From an uncultured Atopobiaceae bacterium (GTDB lineage: Bacteria > Actinomycetota > Coriobacteriia > Coriobacteriales > Atopobiaceae), in the NCBI GenBank assembly GCA_944320385.1, contig CALUHH010000003.1, positions 14,638 to 78,637 on the forward strand: a DNA stretch of 64,000 nucleotides, given 5' to 3'. Numbering within the stretch: position 1 is the first letter of the stretch; the number at the start of each line of letters is the position of its first letter. The position numbers and the translations under genes are program-made. Shown one piece after another: positions 1,105 to 47,384 of this stretch. Under the pieces are notes generated by a model. That model was given only the letters and a program-made list of their open reading frames with translations. It made no database searches and was not told the origin of the DNA.

Positions 1105-2694
1105 GTGGGCGGGGAGTCTTCCGGCCGGGAGGTTGGACGGCGCCTCTCCCGACGCCTGCAGATCGCGCTGGTGGGCGAGGGCGCGCTCGTCGGCCTCGCC
1201 GGCGGCGCCGTCGTCACGCTCTACCGCATGTCACTCTCGGGGGCGGAGGACCTTCTCCGCTCCCTCACGGCCGCCGCGACGGGCAACCCGCCCCTCGTGG
1301 CGGCCTGGTTTTGCGCGCTTGCCGCGATGCTGCTCGTGGTGGCGCGCCTCATCCGCTGGGAGCCCTCCACGTCGGGGTCGGGCATCCCTCAGATCGATTC
1401 CGAGGTCGTCGACCGCATGGACGCTCCCTGGCACCGCGTCATCCCGGCAAAGTTCGCCGAGGGAACGCTGCTCGCGCTCTCCGGCCTCTCGATGGGACGA
1501 GAAGGACCGTCCGTCCAGCTCGGCGGCATGTCCGGCAAGGCCGTCTCCCGCGCGCTGAGGCGCGGCAGGGGAGAGGAGCGGCTCCTGGTGACCTGCGGCG
1601 CCGCCGCGGGCATGTCGGCCGCCTTCCACGCCCCCTTCACCGGCGTCCTCTTTGCCCTCGAGGAGATCCACAAGGAGTTCACCGCGCCGCTGATCATCTC
1701 GGTCATGTGCTCGGCGATCGTCTCCGATCTTCTCGTCTCCCAGGTCCTGGGCATCGAGCCGGTCATGACGCTCGCGTTTGCGCAGGAGCTCCCGCACCCG
1801 GACTACGCGCTCGTGGTCCTTCTCGGCATCGTCTGCGGGCTGCTGGGGGCCCTGCACAACCGCGGCATGTTCGCCTGTCAGGACCTCTTTGCGAAGGTTG
1901 CCTCCGGGGCGCCCGTCGCGGCGCGGCTCGCCGTGCCCTTTGCGCTCGCGGGCGTCGCGGCCTTTGCGTGGCCCGAGCTCATGTGCGGGGGAGACGCGAT
2001 CATCGAGGAGGTCCTCGGGCCTGCCGCGCCCGGCCTCGGGACGCTTCTGGCCCTGCTGGTCGGCAAGTACGTCTTCACCACGGTCTGCTTTGGCTCGGGG
2101 GCGCCCGGGGGCACGCTCTTTCCGCTCGTCGTACTCGGGGCGCTCGTGGGCGGCGCCTTTGCCTCCGTCTGCAGCAACGCTTTTGGCCTGAGCCCGTGGT
2201 TCTTCTCGAACTTCGTGGCGCTGGGCGTGGCGGGGCTCTTCTCGGGCGTGGTGCGGGCTCCGGTGACGGCCGTCATCCTGGTCTTTGAGCTCACGGGCTC
2301 GCTCGACGCGCTGCTCTCGGTCTCCATCGTCTCCATCGTGGCGTACGTGACCTCGAGCGTCACGCGCACCGACGCGTTCTACGAGCACCTGCTCGCAGCG
2401 CTGCTGGGAACCACGACCGACGACCCGGCCGTGAGCGGCCTGGGGGAGTCCAAGGCCCTCCGCACGGTGCGCGTGGGCGCCGGCAGCGCGCTCGAGGGAC
2501 GTTCGCTGCGCGAGGTGCCCTGGCCGGACGGCATGCGCGTCGTGACCATCGAGCGTGCCGGCGGCGAGATCGTGCCGACCGGAGAGACCCGCATTGAGGC
2601 GCTCGACGAGCTGCTCGTGATCGTGGACGGCGGCGCGGCCGATGACGCGCTCCTCAAGCTCCGGCTCATGGCGGAGCAGCGCGTGCGGGAGTGA
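1105..2694 (+). CDS. ClC-family H+/Cl- antiporter with C-terminal TrkA-C (RCK_C) domain
   Basis: ClC signatures GSGIP, GREGP (gating Glu present), GAAAGMSAAFHAP, GAPGG and GVVRAPVT; C-terminal GSALEGRSLREVPWP...IVPTGETRIEALDEL. Confidence 0.9.
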   Translation: MGGESSGREVGRRLSRRLQIALVGEGALVGLAGGAVVTLYRMSLSGAEDLLRSLTAAATGNPPLVAAWFCALAAMLLVVARLIRWEPSTSGSGIPQIDSEVVDRMDAPWHRVIPAKFAEGTLLALSGLSMGREGPSVQLGGMSGKAVSRALRRGRGEERLLVTCGAAAGMSAAFHAPFTGVLFALEEIHKEFTAPLIISVMCSAIVSDLLVSQVLGIEPVMTLAFAQELPHPDYALVVLLGIVCGLLGALHNRGMFACQDLFAKVASGAPVAARLAVPFALAGVAAFAWPELMCGGDAIIEEVLGPAAPGLGTLLALLVGKYVFTTVCFGSGAPGGTLFPLVVLGALVGGAFASVCSNAFGLSPWFFSNFVALGVAGLFSGVVRAPVTAVILVFELTGSLDALLSVSIVSIVAYVTSSVTRTDAFYEHLLAALLGTTTDDPAVSGLGESKALRTVRVGAGSALEGRSLREVPWPDGMRVVTIERAGGEIVPTGETRIEALDELLVIVDGGAADDALLKLRLMAEQRVRE

Positions 2695-2713
2695 TTGACC
2701 ACCGGAGTTTGGC

Positions 2714-2777
2714 GAGAATGCCATATGGGACGGTTTTGCCCCTCACGAGGCCTAGAACTGTCCCATATGGCATTCTC
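2714..2777. repeat. Long hairpin (REP-like family E, copy 1)
   Basis: GAGAATGCCATATGGGAC (2714-2731) is the perfect reverse complement of GTCCCATATGGCATTCTC (2760-2777); left arm matches the hairpin at 28297 at 20 of 24 positions. Confidence 0.75.
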
Positions 2778-2894
2778 AGAAGAGGAAGGGCATCGATGGG
2801 AGAGACCCCTCTTTTTTCTGCGATTTCTCTACTTTACATAAGATATATTATCACGGTTTTAAATCGAGAAGGACGTCTAGCTGGCCTCCGCCGG

Positions 2895-3165
2895 CTTAAG
2901 AAATCGCTCTCATCCGGGAATCGAGCCCCTTGTTGCTTAGAAATCCGCCCTCATCCGGGAGGCGCGCTCCCGAGCGCTTAAGGAATCGCGCCCATCCGAC
3001 GCTGCGGCGCGCTTGTGCTTAGAAAATCGTGCCCGTCCAAGGCTCGCCCTTCCACGATCTTCGGGCGGGCGCGATTCCTTAAGCGCTTGGGGCCCCGTGC
3101 ACCGGACGAGCGCGATTTCTTAAGCGCCGAAACCCGGATTCTCCGGACGGGCGCGATTCCTTAAG
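2895..3165. repeat. Head-to-head 41-bp-period repeat array (family A, copy 1; 4 forward + 3 reverse units)
   Basis: Unit consensus CTTAAGRAATCGYSCCCRTCCGG. Forward units start at 2895, 2936, 2977, 3018; CTTAAG ends of reverse units at 3078, 3119, 3160. Lies between convergent ClC and trxB genes. Confidence 0.92.
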
Positions 3166-3178
3166 CGGTGATGCCCTC

Positions 3179-4129
3179 TCAGCCCTCCACCGGGCGCCCG
3201 AGGTATGCGGCGGCACTCGTGGCCGCCACGGCGCCGTCTGCAGCGGCCGTCACGATCTGGCGCAACGGCTTGGCGCGCGCATCGCCCGCAACAAAGAGCC
3301 CCGGGGTCCGCGTGGCCATGCGCTCGTCGGTCACCACGTATCCCGCATCGTCCACGTCCACGAGCCCGCGCACGAGCTCCGTCTCGGGGTCGCGCCCCAC
3401 GAGGACGAAGACGCCGAACGAGCCCTCTTCATAGGTCTCCACATGCGTGGCCCCCGTCGCGTTGTCGCGCAGCGTCAGCGAGCTCGGAAGGTCGTCGCCG
3501 TCGATTGCGACGATGCTCGTGAGCAGGCGCAGCTCGACCTTCTCGTTATTCTCGAGCTCGCGCACTATGGCCGTCTGGGCCCTCAGATGGTCCTTGCGAA
3601 CGATGACCGTGACCTTGCTGGCCAGGCGCGCCAGGAACAGCGCCTCCTCGGCGGCGGAGTTGCCTCCCCCAACTACGAACACGTGTTTTCCTCTGTAGAA
3701 CATCCCGTCACAGGTGGCGCAGTACGAGACGCCGCGCCCCGCAAAGCGCTCCTCGCCCTCAAAGCCGGCGCGGCGCGGGCGCGCCCCGGCGGCGAGGATG
3801 ACCGCGGCGGCGTCGTAGCTCGCGCTCGAGGCGACCACGCAGAACCGACCCGTCTCGGGGTCATGATCTATCGCAGACACCGGGTCCATGACGATCTGCG
3901 CACCGAGGTCCTCCGCCTGCGCGCGCATCGCGTCAGAGAGCGTGAAGCCGTCGGTGTGCGGCAGCCCTGGGTAGTTGTCGATCTCGCTCGTGAGGATGAC
4001 CTGGCCGCCGAGGGCCTCGCGCTCGAGCGTGACCGCATCGAGCAGCGAGCGCTGGGCGTAGATGGCGGCGGAGAGGCCGGCCGGGCCGCCTCCGACGATG
4101 ACGAGGTCCTTGGGTGTGGCGTCGGGCAT
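3179..4129 (-). CDS. trxB: Thioredoxin-disulfide reductase
   Basis: GGGPAG FAD-binding motif, GVSYCATCDG redox centre, GGGNSA NADPH motif, TPGLFVAGD. Confidence 0.95.
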   Translation of the reverse strand: MPDATPKDLVIVGGGPAGLSAAIYAQRSLLDAVTLEREALGGQVILTSEIDNYPGLPHTDGFTLSDAMRAQAEDLGAQIVMDPVSAIDHDPETGRFCVVASSASYDAAAVILAAGARPRRAGFEGEERFAGRGVSYCATCDGMFYRGKHVFVVGGGNSAAEEALFLARLASKVTVIVRKDHLRAQTAIVRELENNEKVELRLLTSIVAIDGDDLPSSLTLRDNATGATHVETYEEGSFGVFVLVGRDPETELVRGLVDVDDAGYVVTDERMATRTPGLFVAGDARAKPLRQIVTAAADGAVAATSAAAYLGRPVEG

Positions 4130-4249: not shown

Positions 4250-5521
4250 CTAGGCCTCGGAGGCCTCCTTGGGTCTTGGGAGCACGAGGTTCATCAGAAT
4301 GCCGACCAGCGTGGAGGTGGCCATGCCGGGCAGCGTGTAGTCGCCGATGGGAATCGAGATGCCCGAGGTCTCCATGCCCACGCCGAGGATGATGACGACG
4401 GAGGCGATCATGAGGTTGCGGTTGACGTCAAAGTCAACGCGGTTGGAGACGAGCATGCGCAGGCCGTTGGAGGCGATGAGACCAAAGAGCAGGAGGCTCA
4501 CGCCGCCCATGACCGGGCTCGGGATGGACTGGATGAGCGCGGCGAGCTTGGGGCAGAAGCCACCGACGACCAGCGCGAAGCCGGCGGCGTACCAGAAGAT
4601 CTGCGTCGAGTAGACGTGCGTGACGCTCATGACGCCGATGTTCTCTGCGTAGGTGGTCGTCGGGGGGCCGCCGAGGAAGCCCGAGATCATCGTGGAGATG
4701 CCGTCGCCGGCGAGGGAGCGAGGGAGCATCTCGCGATAGTCCTTGCCCACGATCTCCCCGACGGCGAGCAGGTGGCCGATGTGCTCGATGACCACGACGA
4801 CGGCCACGGGTGCCACCAGCGCGATTGCCCCGAGGTCGAAGCGCGGCATAGAGACGTGGGGCAGGCCGATCCAGGACGCCTCGGCCACGGGCGCAAAGTC
4901 CACGAGGTCAAGTGCGAGCGAGAGCAGATAGCCCACGATTATGGCGAGAAGGACCGGGACGGTCCCGACGATGCCGCTCATGCCGGAGAAGATGACCGCG
5001 GCGGCGAGGGTGACGGCAGCGACGATGGCCCCCGTGCCGAAGAAGACGCTCGAGCCGTCAGCAGCGTCGGTCATGAAGGCCATGTCGGCAGCCGTGGCGG
5101 CCAGTCCCACGCCAATGACGACCATGACGGAGGCCACCAGGACCGGCGGAAGAAGGCGGTCGAGCCAGCCGGTCCCCACGAGCCGGATGACGCCGGCGAC
5201 GGCGAGGAAGACGAGGCCGGCCACGATGACGCCGGACATGGCGGCGTCGAGCCCCTTGGTCGCGCCCACCGCGAGGATGGGACTGATGAAGGCAAACGAG
5301 CTGCCCAGGTAGCTGGGAATCTTGTTGCCGGTGACGAGCAGGTAGCAGATGGTGCCGATGCCCGAGCACATGATGGCGACGTTGGGGTCGAGCCCGGTGA
5401 GAACCGGGACGAGCACCGTAGAGCCAAACATCGACATCATGTGCTGAATGCCCAGAGGGATGGCGCGACCGACCGAAACGCGGTCGTCGACCCCGATGAT
5501 CTCACGCTCATGCGAGCTCAC
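4250..5521 (-). CDS. Uracil-xanthine permease (NCS2/NAT, UraA/PyrP-like)
   Basis: GIQHMMSMFGSTVLVP, PSYLGSSFAF, PTTTYAENIGV and NAT-type FCPK...SIPSPVMGG motifs; GTG start with AAGGAG RBS. Confidence 0.9.
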   Translation of the reverse strand: MSSHEREIIGVDDRVSVGRAIPLGIQHMMSMFGSTVLVPVLTGLDPNVAIMCSGIGTICYLLVTGNKIPSYLGSSFAFISPILAVGATKGLDAAMSGVIVAGLVFLAVAGVIRLVGTGWLDRLLPPVLVASVMVVIGVGLAATAADMAFMTDAADGSSVFFGTGAIVAAVTLAAAVIFSGMSGIVGTVPVLLAIIVGYLLSLALDLVDFAPVAEASWIGLPHVSMPRFDLGAIALVAPVAVVVVIEHIGHLLAVGEIVGKDYREMLPRSLAGDGISTMISGFLGGPPTTTYAENIGVMSVTHVYSTQIFWYAAGFALVVGGFCPKLAALIQSIPSPVMGGVSLLLFGLIASNGLRMLVSNRVDFDVNRNLMIASVVIILGVGMETSGISIPIGDYTLPGMATSTLVGILMNLVLPRPKEASEA

Positions 5522-44237: not shown

Positions 44238-44708
44238 CTACTCCGAGAGGCGCACCTGCCGGTAGGTCACGCCGCAGCGGTCGAGGATGTTCTTGGAGAT
44301 GCGGTTGTCCTCCGTGCCGTCGTACTTGTCGTCCAGGTAGACGACCTCGCCGATGCCGGCCTGCACCAGGGTCTTGGCGCACTCGTGGCAGGGGAAGAGC
44401 GTGACGTAGACCGTGGCGCCCGTCATGTCCTTGAGCGACCCGCGGTAGTTGAGGATGGCGTTGGCCTCCGCGTGGATGACGTAGTTGTGCTTGTCGTAGA
44501 GCGGGTCGTCGGCGATACCCCAGGGGAACTCGTCGTCGTTGAGGCCGCGCGGGGTGCCGTTGTAGCCCACCGAGAGGATGCGGTGGTTGGTGTCCGCGAT
44601 GCAGGCGCCGACCTGCGTGTTGGGGTCCTTGCTGCGCAGGCTCGCCGCGACGGCGGCCCTCATGAAGAACTCGTCCCAGCTGATGACGTCGGTGCGCTTG
44701 CCCGGCAT
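44238..44708 (-). CDS. dCMP deaminase (ComEB/DCTD-like)
   Basis: RSKDPNTQVGACI, ILSVGYNG, zinc motifs HAEANAI and TLFPCHECAK. Confidence 0.93.
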   Translation of the reverse strand: MPGKRTDVISWDEFFMRAAVAASLRSKDPNTQVGACIADTNHRILSVGYNGTPRGLNDDEFPWGIADDPLYDKHNYVIHAEANAILNYRGSLKDMTGATVYVTLFPCHECAKTLVQAGIGEVVYLDDKYDGTEDNRISKNILDRCGVTYRQVRLSE

Positions 44709-44803
44709 GGCTGCCTCCCTCTCGTGTTTCCGCTGCTAGCATGGCGCATTTGCGCCACGTGCGCAAGGGGCGAGAAGGACGGGCGGGCTGCGGGCGCTTC
44801 TCG

Positions 44804-45115
44804 CCTGGGGTTTGCGCCCCGTCCGGCGCCGGGGCGGCGCCGCGCTTAGGGAATGCGGCCCGTCCGGCGAGAAGGGCATGTTGTGCTTAAAGAATCGCCC
44901 CCGTCTGGCGCTGGGGCGGCGCCGCGCTTAAAGAATCGCTCCCGTCCGGCGAGAAGGGCATGCCGTGCTTAAGAAATCGCCCCCATCCGGACAAATGGCG
45001 GGACGCCCCTCCGGACGGAGACGATTTCTTAAGCACGAACCGGCCCGCCGCCCGAATGGGCCGCGATCCTTAAGCGCGAATCCGCCCGCCGCCCGGACGG
45101 GCCGCGATCTCTAAG
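44804..45115. repeat. Head-to-head 41-bp-period repeat array (family A, copy 2)
   Basis: Forward units at 44845, 44886, 44927, 44968 (plus a degenerate one at 44804); reverse-unit CTTAAG/TCTAAG at 45028, 45069, 45110. Forward spacers alternate CGCYGGGGCGGCGCCGCG and CGAGAAGGGCATGYYGTG. Confidence 0.92.
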
Positions 45116-45155
45116 CGCGCCGCCGACCGCGGCCCAGCCGCTTGGGCAGTCTGTC

Positions 45156-45176
45156 AATTGGGGACTGTCCCCAATT
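45156..45176. repeat. GGGGACTGTCCCC-type palindrome at the 3' end of the oxidoreductase gene
   Basis: AATTGGGGAC-T-GTCCCCAATT, 10-bp perfect arms. Confidence 0.7.
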
Positions 45177-47185
45177 TACAGCTGGTTGGCGGCGGCGTAG
45201 GCGGTGCGGATGGCGCTCGCGATGTCGGCGGTGCGCTCGCCGGAGCAGTCGCCCACCAGCGTCACCGGCACGTCGAGGCCGCTCGCGTCGAAGGGCACGG
45301 CGCGCGAGCCCACCGCCATGACGACCCAGTCGCACGGGATGGTCACGCCCTCGTCGCCGCAGACCGCCTCGACGCCGGCGTCGGTGATCGCGGTCACGCG
45401 CGTGTTGACGTGCTGCTCCACGCCCTTCTCGGCGAACTCCGCCATGATCGTGGGCAGGATGGTCCCGGACTCCCCCGTCGCGATCTGCTCGAGCATCTCC
45501 ACGATGGCCACCTGGCAGCCGCGCGCGAGCAGGTACTCGGCGGTCTCGGTGCCCACGAGGCCTCCGCCGATGACGGCCACGCGGCCCTCGGGCGCGGCCG
45601 CGCCGGCGAGCACGTCCCACGCGGAGACCACGTTGGCACGGTCGGCGCCCGGCACGGGCAGGCACACGTTCTCGGCGCCCACCGCGACGACGACGGCGTC
45701 GAAGCCGGCGAGGTCGGCGGCCGCGACCTCGCGGCCCAGGCGCACGTCGACGCCCAGCGCGGGCAGCTCGCGCTCGTAGTACTCCACGGCGCGCATGATC
45801 TCGGACTTGCGCGGCGGCGCGGCGGCGAGCTCGATCTGGCCGCCGAGGCGCTCGGCACGCTCGAAGAGGGTCACGGCGTAGCCACGCTTGGCGGCCACGC
45901 GCGCGGCCTCGCAGCCGGCGATGCCGCCGCCGACCACGGCCACGCGCTTCTCGCCCTCGCCCGGGCGGATGAAGATCGTGGCCTCGTCGCCGTTCTCGGC
46001 GTTGAGCACGCAGGAGATGCAGCGGCGGCCCTGGATGGCGTCGACGCAACCCTTGTTGCAGTTGAGGCACAGGCGCACCGGCTCGCCGGAGGCCACCTTG
46101 AGGGCGATGTCGGGGTCGGCGAGCAGCGAGCGGCCGTAGCCGATGACGTCTGCCTGGCCGTCCTCGAGGATCTTCTCGCCCGCCTCGGGGGTGACGACGC
46201 GGCCGACCGTGGCCACGGGGATGCCCACGAGGCCCTTCACGCGCTCGGCCACCGGGAGCGTCCAGTTGTAGGGCATCGTGCCCATGGGCGGGATGGTGTC
46301 GCCCATGTTGCCGGTGTGGTTGGCCTGAGCCACCTGGATCATGTCCACGCCCGCCTTCTCCAGCAGCACGGCGAGCTCGCAGGCCTCGTCGGGCTCCAGG
46401 CCGCCCTTGCCGCGCTTGGAGCCGTCCGGGTTGGTCATGATGACGGGGAGCTTGTACTCCACCATGAGGCCGGGCGCGGCCTCCTTGATCGCGGCGACGA
46501 CCTCGAGCGCGTAGCGGACGCGGTTCTCGAAGGGGCCGCCGTAGTCGTCGGTGCGGTGGTTGAGCGCGGTGGAGCACAGCGACCCCACCAGGCGGTCGCC
46601 GTGGACCTCGATGGCGTCGACGCCGGCCTTCTCGGCACGGGCGGCGCAGGCGGCGATGGCGTCCCTGATCTGGGCGAGCTGCTCGACGGTGGCCTCGGAG
46701 ACAAAGTGCTGCATGTCGTGGTGGAGCTTGGCGTAGGCCTGGTTGGCGATCTCCTTGGACTCGGCCATCTTGGCCTGGAAGGTCTCCATGTCGCCGGCGG
46801 CCTGCGCCTTCTGCCCCTCCATCGCCGCCATGCGCGAGGTCATGATGAGCCTGCCCACGCCGGGGACGTCGTACTCGGGGTGGAAGAGCTGCAGGGCGAG
46901 CTTGGCGCCGTGGGCGTGGACGGCGTCGGCGAGCGCGGCGAAGCTCGGGATCTGGGAGTCGTCGCAGAGCTTGGGCGTGGGGCTCGCGGTGTTCACGGGC
47001 GCGACGTCGCCGATGACGATGTAGGAGACCCCGCCCTTGGCGAGGCGCTCGTAGAAGGCGAGGCTGCGCGGGCCGATGGAACCGTCGCGCTCCTCGTAGC
47101 CGGTGGTGAGCGGCGGGAACATGATGCGGTTCTTGAGCGTGAGGTTGCCGACCTTGATCGGCTCGAGCAGCTTGGACGTTGCCAT
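45176..47185 (-). CDS. bilR: OYE-family NADH:flavin oxidoreductase, long form; probable bilirubin reductase
   Basis: TIM-barrel start LKNRIMFPPLTTGYEE, QLFHPEYD, HGDRL at the OYE active-site position (46592-46603), 4Fe-4S motif CLNCNKGC-X11-C, FAD-binding GGGIAG and second Rossmann GGGLVGTETA. The bilR symbol rests on motif recognition, not a search. Confidence 0.72.
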   Translation of the reverse strand: MATSKLLEPIKVGNLTLKNRIMFPPLTTGYEERDGSIGPRSLAFYERLAKGGVSYIVIGDVAPVNTASPTPKLCDDSQIPSFAALADAVHAHGAKLALQLFHPEYDVPGVGRLIMTSRMAAMEGQKAQAAGDMETFQAKMAESKEIANQAYAKLHHDMQHFVSEATVEQLAQIRDAIAACAARAEKAGVDAIEVHGDRLVGSLCSTALNHRTDDYGGPFENRVRYALEVVAAIKEAAPGLMVEYKLPVIMTNPDGSKRGKGGLEPDEACELAVLLEKAGVDMIQVAQANHTGNMGDTIPPMGTMPYNWTLPVAERVKGLVGIPVATVGRVVTPEAGEKILEDGQADVIGYGRSLLADPDIALKVASGEPVRLCLNCNKGCVDAIQGRRCISCVLNAENGDEATIFIRPGEGEKRVAVVGGGIAGCEAARVAAKRGYAVTLFERAERLGGQIELAAAPPRKSEIMRAVEYYERELPALGVDVRLGREVAAADLAGFDAVVVAVGAENVCLPVPGADRANVVSAWDVLAGAAAPEGRVAVIGGGLVGTETAEYLLARGCQVAIVEMLEQIATGESGTILPTIMAEFAEKGVEQHVNTRVTAITDAGVEAVCGDEGVTIPCDWVVMAVGSRAVPFDASGLDVPVTLVGDCSGERTADIASAIRTAYAAANQL

Positions 47186-47384
47186 GAGGGTTCCTCTCCA
47201 TCGGCGATGCGGTCCCCGCCAGCGTAGGGCATGCGGGGGCGCGCACGCAGGAGAGGTCGGAGGGACGCCCGTTCTTCTCGCCGCGCGAGCGAGAAGAACG
47301 CTCTGGTTGAGCCTGAGACTCTGAGGCGACAGACCCTCTAGCAAGCCTCAAGCTCGCAGGTAAGACGGCTTGGAAGCGCCCCTT

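What the first reader, a model, noticed from the sequence alone, without database searches (positions are those of the whole stretch)
2895..3165. Family A: 41-bp-phased, head-to-head 4+3 array with geometry identical to a second copy 42 kb away
Seen: a 23-bp unit (CTTAAGRAATCGYSCCCRTCCGG) repeats every 41 bp, four times forward (2895, 2936, 2977, 3018) and three times reversed (CTTAAG at 3078, 3119, 3160). The copy at 44845-45115 has the same 4+3 layout, the same 41-bp period, the same 60-bp offset between the last forward and first reverse CTTAAG, and the same 271-bp span, although its 18-bp spacers are unrelated. Conserved geometry with free spacer sequence argues for selection on spacing, not recent duplication. 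Inference: 41 bp is about four helical turns, so sites would face one side of the helix, as expected for a phased protein-binding platform (nucleoid-associated protein, recombinase or iteron-like scaffold). Alternatively it is a BIME-like REP mosaic or long RNA hairpin. I do not recognise it as a named family.
Basis: partly seen in the sequence, partly recalled or inferred. Interest (0 to 1): 0.85.

Follow-up and report, generated by a model that had tools for sequence, protein, structure and literature searches.

The report
Phased foldback repeat arrays, nuclease-linked
The two look-alike arrays are copies of a genome-wide family of about 68 intergenic "foldback" repeats built from strictly 41-bp units. 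The family behaves like the REP/BIME repeats of E. coli, is a landing pad for two insertion sequences, and may be served by a little-known nuclease gene that is itself bracketed by these arrays.

Summary
Both loci hold 4 forward and 3 reverse units at a 41-bp period.

They are not a special pair. They belong to an interspersed family of 68 arrays (about 407 units, 0.8% of the genome), always forward units followed by reverse units, with 2-8 units per arm. The 41-bp period is almost invariant. The 4+3 count and the 60-bp centre are not; the commonest centre is 11 bp longer.

Each unit has an asymmetric 24-bp conserved core plus a free spacer of about 17 bp. I found no base-pair covariation within units or between mirrored units, so per-unit protein recognition fits better than an RNA hairpin.

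The family is confined to one Atopobiaceae genus. Cores are species-specific, and one lineage has a 31-bp period.

An IS3-family IS and an IS110-family IS each insert at a fixed position of the unit, as IS1397 and IS621 do in REP.

RAYT-like genes exist but flank other palindromes.

A 362-aa PD-(D/E)XK (DUF559/Vsr-like) gene is bracketed by two complete arrays of the local variant in every species examined. Its paralogues are bracketed by other repeat families. Earlier notes of this scan reported DUF559-repeat pairings on other DNA.

Verdict: a new variant of REP/REPIN-like repeats with a candidate new partner enzyme.

The parts
2894..3040 (+). Array 1, forward arm. Four 41-bp units with 24-nt cores at 2894-2917, 2935-2958, 2976-2999 and 3017-3040.
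3041..3060 (.). Array 1, central spacer of 20 nt. This is the minority '67' centre class.
3061..3166 (-). Array 1, reverse arm. Three inverted units with cores at 3061-3084, 3102-3125 and 3143-3166.
44844..44990 (+). Array 2, forward arm. Four units with cores starting at 44844, 44885, 44926 and 44967. A degenerate fifth unit lies near 44803. Spacers alternate in an 82-bp super-period.
44991..45010 (.). Array 2, central spacer of 20 nt.
45011..45116 (-). Array 2, reverse arm. Three inverted units with cores ending at 45034, 45075 and 45116.
1105..2694 (+). Left flanking gene of array 1: a ClC-type channel (Voltage_CLC + TrkA_C, 529 aa). Its 3' end faces the array.
3179..4129 (-). Right flanking gene of array 1: a Pyr_redox_2 flavoprotein (316 aa). 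Its stop codon lies 13 nt from the array, so the two flanking genes are convergent.
44238..44708 (-). Left flanking gene of array 2 (156 aa). Its 5' end faces the array, 136 nt away.
45176..47344 (-). Right flanking gene of array 2 (722 aa). Its 3' end faces the array.

Best explanation
Family A is an interspersed extragenic repeat of one Atopobiaceae genus.

Anatomy. Each element is a foldback array of 2-8 direct 41-bp units followed by 2-8 inverted units. A unit is an asymmetric 24-bp conserved core (GCTTAAG-RAATCGC-N-CCCRTCCGG) plus a spacer of about 17 bp that is free in sequence but fixed in length.

Shown:
- The anatomy above.
- The copy number.
- Restriction to intergenic DNA, with a bias to gene 3' ends.
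- The strict period.
- Turnover between species.
- Species-specific cores.
- Use as a site-specific target by an IS3-family IS and an IS110-family IS.
- Bracketing of one nuclease-like gene by two complete arrays.

Inferred:
- Each core is a recognition site for a sequence-specific DNA-binding protein.
- The 41-bp (about 4 turns) or 31-bp (about 3 turns) register places successive sites on one face of the helix, so that protomers can bind side by side.
- The partner is the 362-aa PD-(D/E)XK (DUF559/Vsr-like) protein encoded at contig C2:9853-10938.
- By analogy with RAYT and REPIN, this protein would nick or cut at its cores. It would thereby drive copying of arrays into new intergenic sites (often the tips of terminator-like hairpins) and gain or loss of units in 41-bp steps.
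- The insertion sequences merely exploit the arrays as abundant safe havens.
For: Family and layout:
- 68 arrays / 407 units in G000 and 34 arrays / 192 units in the closed sister genome G178.
- All arrays run '+...+ -...-', with no '-+' junction, and none overlaps a called gene.

Period:
- It is exactly 41 in 90% of intervals.
- A 31-bp variant occurs in five other genomes of the genus.

Per-unit constraint without pairing:
- Own-unit MFE is -10.0 against -10.4 for core/spacer chimeras.
- There is no complementary covariation.
- Mirror units are 0.59 identical, against 0.57 for non-mirror units and 0.54 for units from other arrays.

Context:
- 13 of 35 arrays lie between convergent genes, against a 17% baseline, p=0.003.

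Turnover:
- Only 8 of 30 syntenic loci are also filled in G178.
- Orthologous arrays differ in unit number and spacers, although flanking protein identities are about 70-100%.

IS targeting:
- IS3 family (NF033516, 262 bits): 5 of 6 copies in G178 and 10 of 12 IS ends in G000 lie in arrays. Insertion is 2 nt outside GCTTA with a 3-bp duplication.
- IS110 family: 3 of 3 intact copies sit at TTTCC^TAAGC inside a core.

Nuclease link:
- The gene is bracketed by complete arrays of the local variant in G000 and G178 (GCTTAAG type), G076 (GTTAGAAA type), G164 (31-bp type) and four further species with yet other cores.
- Most homologues sit on contigs of 1.3-4 kb, as expected if assembly-breaking repeats flank them.
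- The family has 10 members in G000 and 12 in G178. For 6/10 and 7/12, the inverted-repeat score between the two flanks exceeds the 95th percentile of about 150 control ORFs, with a different repeat family for each paralogue.
- The AF2 model has pLDDT 89. The best fold matches are weak but are all PD-(D/E)XK nucleases: TnsA, the R2 endonuclease domain and Cas4-like proteins.
Against: - No binding, cleavage or mobility was observed.
- No target-site duplication or clean empty-site junction could be defined.
- The bracketed gene sits at one conserved locus (between a GH77 gene and mfd). Its flanking arrays could therefore be inherited rather than functionally linked, and the species are not independent.
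- The closest homologues in G157 and G164 are flanked by a different repeat.
- Pfam and PDB matches of the protein are below threshold.
- 41 bp is 3.9 turns at 10.5 bp per turn, so exact phasing needs about 10.25 bp per turn.
- The paralogue flank statistic is weak for family A itself (26-34 bits), because its units are divergent.
Confidence: 0.5

Rival explanations
1. Host-function platform. The arrays are phased binding or wrapping sites for a chromosomal protein such as gyrase or a nucleoid-associated protein, as proposed for E. coli BIME-2. They are kept at gene ends to manage supercoiling or domain structure. The bracketed nuclease gene is a bystander.
For: - The period is strictly 41 bp, and the two centre classes differ by 11 bp.
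- A sister lineage has a 31-bp period.
- An AT-rich patch (TTAAGRAAT) recurs in phase in a 68% GC genome.
- Arrays are enriched between convergent genes.
- Each unit is individually conserved.
Against: - Cores change from species to species within one genus.
- Most loci are not conserved between sister species. This is unexpected for sites of a conserved housekeeping protein.
- Copy number varies from 0 to about 170 two-unit matches among congeners.
Confidence: 0.2
2. RNA-level element. Arrays are transcribed as 3' UTRs and fold into long hairpins that terminate transcription or protect mRNA 3' ends, as REP elements do.
For: - The location is just past stop codons; array edges are often only 13-45 nt from a facing gene 3' end (median 69 nt).
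- Arrays seem embedded in the tips of terminator-like hairpins that exist at the empty sites.
- The 291-nt region folds at -78.9 kcal/mol, z=-4.7.
Against: - There is no compensatory covariation within units or between mirrored units.
- Spacers would form large internal loops of about 17 x 17 nt.
- No Rfam family matches.
- The strict spacer length has no obvious role in a hairpin.
Confidence: 0.12
3. Non-autonomous element (MITE) moved by the IS3-family transposase that is found inside the arrays. The cores would be transposase-binding sites resembling the IS ends.
For: - The IS terminal repeat (GGGGGTCCGGACGTTTTCTTGGAC) shares CCGGACG and TTTCTT with the reverse-complemented core.
- The identical IS occurs in the three genomes richest in this core type.
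- Related IS variants accompany variant cores.
Against: - Array termini (GCTTAAG) do not match the IS termini (GGGGGT).
- No target duplication flanks the arrays.
- The similarity needs a 6-nt gap and is in the opposite orientation relative to the element ends.
- In G207 the same IS lies outside arrays at 5 of 5 ends.
- The relative in G164 inserts at a different position of the unit.
Confidence: 0.06
4. Classical REP/BIME family replicated by a RAYT (Y1 HUH transposase).
For: The genome encodes four PF01797 proteins of 246-282 aa, best matching the NCBIfam REP-associated tyrosine transposase model below its cutoff.
Against: - Each of the four genes is flanked by its own GGGAC-type palindromes.
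- None has a family-A unit within 2.5 kb.
- The unit is not a palindrome.
- Units are direct within an arm, not alternating.
Confidence: 0.03

Closest known systems
REP / BIME / REPIN repeats with their RAYT transposase (E. coli, Pseudomonas; PMC3116915, PMC2817692, PMC3333891)
   Same: - High-copy, extragenic and species-specific.
- Clustered into composite inverted structures at gene 3' ends.
- Vertically persistent at some loci but turning over at others.
- A single chromosomal gene is bracketed by the repeats.
- Used as specific targets by IS3- and IS110-family elements (PMC1525189).
   Different: - The unit is not a stem-loop and lacks a GTAG-type head.
- Units are direct tandem copies at a fixed 41-bp period with one inversion at the centre, not alternating.
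- The bracketed gene is a PD-(D/E)XK-type nuclease-like protein, not a Y1 HUH enzyme.
- The RAYT-like genes of this genome serve other palindromes.
REP-targeting insertion sequences IS1397 / ISKpn1 (IS3 family) and IS621 (IS110 family) (PMC1525189)
   Same: Members of the same two IS families insert at a fixed position of an abundant extragenic repeat.
   Different: The target here is a non-palindromic 24-bp core in a phased array. The IS3 element inserts between units (2 nt outside the core), not in a hairpin loop.
Foldback (FB) transposons of Drosophila (from my own knowledge, not tested)
   Same: - Long inverted arms made of short tandem sub-repeats.
- Arm length varies between copies.
- There is little or no central loop.
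   Different: FB elements are eukaryotic, have much longer arms and sub-repeats of changing period. No sequence or enzyme relation is known.
Transposon ends with several phased transposase sites (Tn7: 3 + 4 TnsB sites, with TnsA as a PD-(D/E)XK nuclease; Mu ends) (from my own knowledge)
   Same: - Several asymmetric sites of about 22-24 bp, in direct order within each end and inverted between ends.
- TnsA is among the highest-probability, though weak, fold matches of the bracketed protein.
   Different: - No cargo lies between the arms.
- The site number is variable.
- No TnsB/TnsC-like genes were tied to the arrays.
- No target duplication was seen.
DUF559-nuclease genes bracketed by dispersed hairpin repeats
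   Same: A Vsr/DUF559-like gene sits between inverted copies of a repeat that also litters the genome. One note concerns Atopobiaceae.
   Different: Those notes describe hairpin or 'triplex' modules. Here the repeat is a phased tandem foldback array of non-palindromic units, and the protein is a longer (362 aa) multi-domain form.

Membership tests
REP/BIME (RAYT-associated) | Abundant and strictly extragenic | tested here: met
   68 arrays / 407 units. None overlaps a called gene.
REP/BIME (RAYT-associated) | The unit is an imperfect palindrome (stem-loop) | tested here: not met
   Own-unit folding is no better than that of chimeras. There is no complementary covariation.
REP/BIME (RAYT-associated) | Successive units alternate in orientation | tested here: not met
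   Units are direct within each arm, with a single inversion. This holds for 102 of 102 arrays in two genomes.
REP/BIME (RAYT-associated) | A cognate Y1 (RAYT) gene is flanked by the repeat | tested here: not met
   The four PF01797 genes are flanked by other palindromes. None has a family-A unit within 2.5 kb.
MITE | Terminal inverted repeats | tested here: met
   The outermost units are inverted copies, GCTTAAG...CTTAAGC.
MITE | Target-site duplication at filled versus empty sites | tested here: inconclusive
   Alignments of 11 filled/empty site pairs showed no clean duplication, and the junctions have diverged.
MITE | A parent IS with the same ends | tested here: not met
   All half-arrays in the closed genome are explained by IS insertions into arrays. 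The IS3 ends differ from the array ends.
CRISPR array | Unidirectional repeats with unique spacers of 26 nt or more | tested here: not met
   Spacers are about 17 nt with a weak shared consensus. Arrays are head-to-head and occur at 68 loci.
Plasmid-type iterons / centromere repeats (e.g. sopC 43-bp repeats) | One direct tandem array next to replication or partition genes | tested here: not met
   There are 68 dispersed chromosomal loci, always in inverted arms, with unrelated flanking genes.
Nuclease-bracketed repeat systems (DUF559/Vsr-like; undescribed, from the scan's notes) | A PD-(D/E)XK/DUF559-like gene is bracketed on both sides by the same dispersed repeat | tested here: met
   Seen in G000, G178, G076, G164 and four metagenome/isolate contigs. 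The paralogue statistics agree.
Nuclease-bracketed repeat systems (DUF559/Vsr-like; undescribed, from the scan's notes) | The protein has a Vsr/DUF559-type nuclease domain | tested here: inconclusive
   - One homologue carries the UniRef name 'DUF559 domain-containing protein'.
- Pfam gives only sub-threshold MTES_1575 / DUF2726 matches.
- Fold matches are weak, but all are PD-(D/E)XK nucleases.
- There is a conserved PD...EY.G..H motif.
Nuclease-bracketed repeat systems (DUF559/Vsr-like; undescribed, from the scan's notes) | The protein binds or cuts the repeat | not testable with these tools
   This needs EMSA, footprinting and nicking assays.

The most novel reading that the evidence does not exclude
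A previously undescribed repeat-enzyme partnership. A family of multi-domain PD-(D/E)XK (DUF559/Vsr-like) nucleases has 10-12 paralogues per genome. Each paralogue recognises and propagates its own family of helically phased foldback arrays (periods of about 2, 3 or 4 helical turns). This would be a second, mechanistically different counterpart of the RAYT-REPIN symbiosis.
Probability: 0.4. Interest if true: 0.85.

Novelty: new variant of a known kind. Interest (0 to 1): 0.68.

Why it matters
Interspersed extragenic repeats are widespread, but outside the REP-RAYT case their origin and upkeep are mostly unexplained.

What this case offers:
- A clean, quantifiable instance in gut Actinomycetota: a strict unit length with free spacer sequence, which is direct evidence for selection on geometry.
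- Species-specific cores and rapid turnover between species.
- Two IS families that home to fixed positions of the unit.
- A testable candidate partner enzyme of a different catalytic class.

If the nuclease link holds:
- A large orphan protein family (DUF559-like) gains a function.
- The link explains why these genomes assemble poorly at such sites.
- It provides natural, programmable-looking pairs of protein and 24-bp site.

Practical point: the arrays and the IS copies nested in them account for many contig breaks in this assembly.

Tried and rejected
1. Intra-unit hairpin. Folding of real units against core/spacer chimeras, and a mutual-information scan over 146-255 units, gave no pairing signal.
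2. Selection for arm-to-arm pairing. Mirrored units are no more alike than other pairs.
3. RAYT partner. Four Y1 genes were found, but they are tied to other palindromes.
4. Rfam. Nothing at gathering thresholds. Only sub-threshold plant miRNA hairpin noise appeared at E<=1.
5. Strain polymorphism at window locus 1. Eight metagenome copies are identical over 604 nt, so they are uninformative.
6. Target-site duplications. None was definable.
7. A 13-mer 'repeat coverage' measure of gene flanks was uninformative, because 83-90% of control genes passed it.
9. My first fuzzy regex mis-specified the error types and under-counted. It was replaced by nhmmer and a loose regex.
10. E. coli ycjD (DUF559), a lead from earlier notes. 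It lies next to fabI with a 367-bp gap, but I saw no repeat bracketing both sides in a quick look. I did not pursue it.
11. One call used a wrong reference and one used wrong coordinates. Both were corrected.
12. My interim note gave 9 of 33 shared loci. A recount gives 8 of 30.

Full report
**1. Observation**

Both loci are as described.
- Array 1 has forward cores starting at 2894, 2935, 2976 and 3017, and reverse cores ending at 3084, 3125 and 3166.
- Array 2 has forward cores starting at 44844, 44885, 44926 and 44967, and reverse cores ending at 45034, 45075 and 45116. There is a weak fifth forward unit near 44803.
- The period is exactly 41 bp, and the inner CTTAAG-to-CTTAAG offset is 60 bp in both.

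**2. Genome-wide family**

The window is C3:14638-78637 of a 2.24-Mb, 58-contig, 68% GC assembly.
- A core HMM and a loose regex (GCTTA-N13-R-T-Y-C) find 68 arrays with 407 units, 0.79% of the genome.
- Every array reads forward units followed by reverse units. No tail-to-tail junction exists.
- None overlaps a called gene.
- Arms hold 2-8 units.
- Same-orientation neighbour distances are 41 bp in 259 of 288 cases; most others are 82 or 42.
- The head-to-head G-to-G distance falls into two classes: 78 (22 arrays) and 67 (7 arrays, including both window loci), plus 41-bp multiples where a unit is degenerate.

So the period is a family constant. The shared 4+3 count and 60-bp centre of the two window copies are not.

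**3. Anatomy of the unit**

- The conserved positions are GCTTA (0-4), A8, C15, C17 and TCCGG (19-23). Intermediate conservation runs across positions 5-18.
- Positions 24-40 are nearly free, apart from a G-rich stretch at 30-31 and recurrent motifs such as GAGAAGGACGGGC or its complement just before the next GCTTA.
- The core is asymmetric.

I tested for structure in three ways.
- Real units fold no better than chimeras of one unit's core with another's spacer (-10.0 against -10.4 +/- 0.2 kcal/mol).
- A mutual-information scan finds only neighbour correlations and no complementary pairs.
- Mirrored units of the two arms are hardly more alike (0.59 identity at variable core positions) than non-mirrored units (0.57) or units from different arrays (0.54).

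The whole element does fold strongly as a single strand (-78.9 kcal/mol, z = -4.7). That follows from the shared cores alone. The data therefore point to each unit being constrained on its own, as a protein recognition site would be, together with a constraint on spacer length.

**4. Context**

- Of 35 arrays with both neighbours called, 13 lie between convergent genes (37% against a 17% baseline, p = 0.003). Three lie between divergent genes.
- Array 1 is 13 nt from a stop codon, between convergent genes.
- Array 2 lies between tandem genes.

**5. Distribution**

- A three-unit pattern scanned over 185,579 species' genomes hit only Atopobiaceae records, plus one chance hit.
- Within the genus, the GCTTAAG type occurs in 5 of 39 genomes. 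Two-unit matches number 171, 84, 8, 3 and 3.
- It was found in none of 37 other sampled genera of the family.
- Other members of the genus carry homologous variants:
  - TCTAGAA...CCCTTGTC with a 31-bp period, in five genomes;
  - GTTAGAAA...GTCGTTGCGG with a 41-bp period, in G076;
  - further cores on metagenome contigs and in Olsenella profusa, with periods of 41 or 40.
- Periods of 31, 40 and 41 bp equal 3 or 4 turns at 10.0-10.3 bp per turn, and the two centre classes differ by 11 bp. This is consistent with helical phasing but does not prove it.

**6. Turnover**

I fetched the closed sister chromosome whole (G178 = OZ006999.1, 2,773,143 bp). It has 34 arrays with the same grammar.
- Of 30 G000 array loci with syntenic flanks, 8 also hold an array in G178 and 22 do not.
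- The empty gaps are 67-250 bp in many cases. Both window loci are among the empty ones.
- At one locus G178 has a single unit where G000 has 2+4.
- Shared arrays differ in unit number and in most spacers, although the flanking proteins are about 70-100% identical.
- I could not define target duplications. Arrays often seem to replace the tip of a GC-rich hairpin of the GAGAAGG...CCTTCTC kind that is present at the empty site.

**7. Insertion sequences**

A 1514-bp IS3-family element (NF033516, 262 bits; rve and HTH domains) has six copies in G178.
- Five lie inside arrays, which cover 0.31% of that genome.
- All five are inserted 2 nt outside the GCTTA end of a core, with a 3-bp duplication.

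In G000 the same IS ends (100% identical) close 12 contigs.
- Ten of the 12 flanks are family-A units cut at position 39 of 41 or at its mirror image.
- This explains why many arrays sit about 95-120 nt from contig ends.

An IS110-family element has three intact copies in G178, all inserted at TTTCC^TAAGC within a core.

Related IS3 variants (93% and 79% identical) sit in the variant arrays of G076 and G164, at another position in G164. In G207 the identical IS lies outside arrays, so targeting is a strong preference and not absolute.

This mirrors IS1397/ISKpn1 (IS3 family) and IS621 (IS110 family) in REP sequences (PMC1525189).

**8. Partner enzyme**

The RAYT idea was tested and fails.
- There are four PF01797 genes.
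- Each is flanked by its own GGGAC-type palindromes. One such family matches GGGGAC-N-GTCCCC 262 times counting both strands, that is about 130 sites.
- None has a family-A unit nearby.

Looking for genes bracketed by arrays gave one case: a 362-aa gene at C2:9853-10938.
- It has a complete array on each side in G000 and G178, and it is only 69% identical between them while its neighbours are 91% and 96% identical.
- Its homologues lie between a GH77 gene and mfd in several species.
- On every long contig examined, they are bracketed on both sides by head-to-head arrays of that species' own core. This includes the 31-bp variant in G164.
- Most homologues in metagenome assemblies sit on contigs of 1.3-4 kb, as expected for a gene between assembly-breaking repeats.
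- The family has 10 members in G000 and 12 in G178. The best inverted-repeat match between the two 700-bp flanks exceeds the 95th percentile of about 150 control ORFs for 6/10 and 7/12 members.
- A different repeat brackets each paralogue.

The protein itself:
- It models confidently (pLDDT 88.9) but has no close solved relative.
- The best fold matches are weak, and all are PD-(D/E)XK nucleases: TnsA, the R2 endonuclease domain and Cas4-like proteins.
- Pfam gives only sub-threshold MTES_1575 and DUF2726 matches.
- One homologue is named DUF559 by UniRef.
- A PD...EY.G..H motif is conserved.

I reached this link before reading the scan's earlier notes. Those notes report similar DUF559-repeat pairings in other genomes, one of them in Atopobiaceae. 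They are unchecked and are not independent evidence. The literature library held no paper linking DUF559 to interspersed repeats.

**9. Verdict**

The arrays are members of a REP/BIME-like interspersed family with an unusual architecture: a phased tandem foldback of non-palindromic cores.
- Selection on spacing is supported.
- A special 4+3 geometry is not.
- The most likely mechanism is phased, per-unit protein recognition by a cognate PD-(D/E)XK nuclease that maintains and spreads the arrays. This is inferred, at about 0.5.
- IS elements exploit the arrays as targets. This is shown.
- Binding, cleavage, mobility and transcription remain untested.

Noticed in passing
window 45151-45181; genome-wide in G000: The palindrome CTGTCAATTGGGGACTGTCCCCAATTTACAG belongs to a family of about 130 sites. 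That family brackets one of four RAYT-like (PF01797) genes, at C5:54783. The other three RAYT-like genes (on C1, C53 and C16) are each bracketed by a different GGGAC-type palindrome. The genome therefore also carries classical REP/RAYT-like systems.
   Followed up: partly
window 2709-2782: A palindrome of about 60 nt (GAGAATGCCATATGGGAC ... GTCCCATATGGCATTCTC) sits next to array 1. It is conserved at the empty orthologous site of the sister species, so it predates the array.
   Followed up: no
G000 contig ends (C5, C9, C12, C18, C21, C23, C24, C26, C42, C53, C55, C56): Twelve contigs end in 74-77 nt of one IS3-family IS whose body is missing from the assembly. At least six IS copies are therefore collapsed, and many assembly gaps are IS-in-array junctions.
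   Followed up: yes
G178 (OZ006999.1) 2693736-2697127: One array carries both an IS3-family and an IS110-family insertion, side by side.
   Followed up: yes
many intergenic regions, e.g. window 44790-44810 and G000 C8:25740-25790: The motif [10 protein letters not shown] and its complement GYCCTTCTCG recur at the bases of hairpins at gene ends, inside array spacers, and once as a 17-bp tandem repeat. This may be a further repeat or a terminator signature.
   Followed up: no
G178 L069:3094-3288 and 4984-5178: Two inverted copies of a 195-bp element with GGACCCAAATCCGGATTTGGGTCC palindromes at 29-bp spacing bracket a 38%-identical paralogue of the nuclease-like gene.
   Followed up: partly
   Followed up: partly
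E. coli K-12 NC_000913.3 1351407-1351760 (L221): ycjD is annotated as a DUF559 protein and lies 367 bp from fabI. Earlier notes link it to BoxC repeats. In a quick look I saw GC-rich inverted repeats on one side only.
   Followed up: partly
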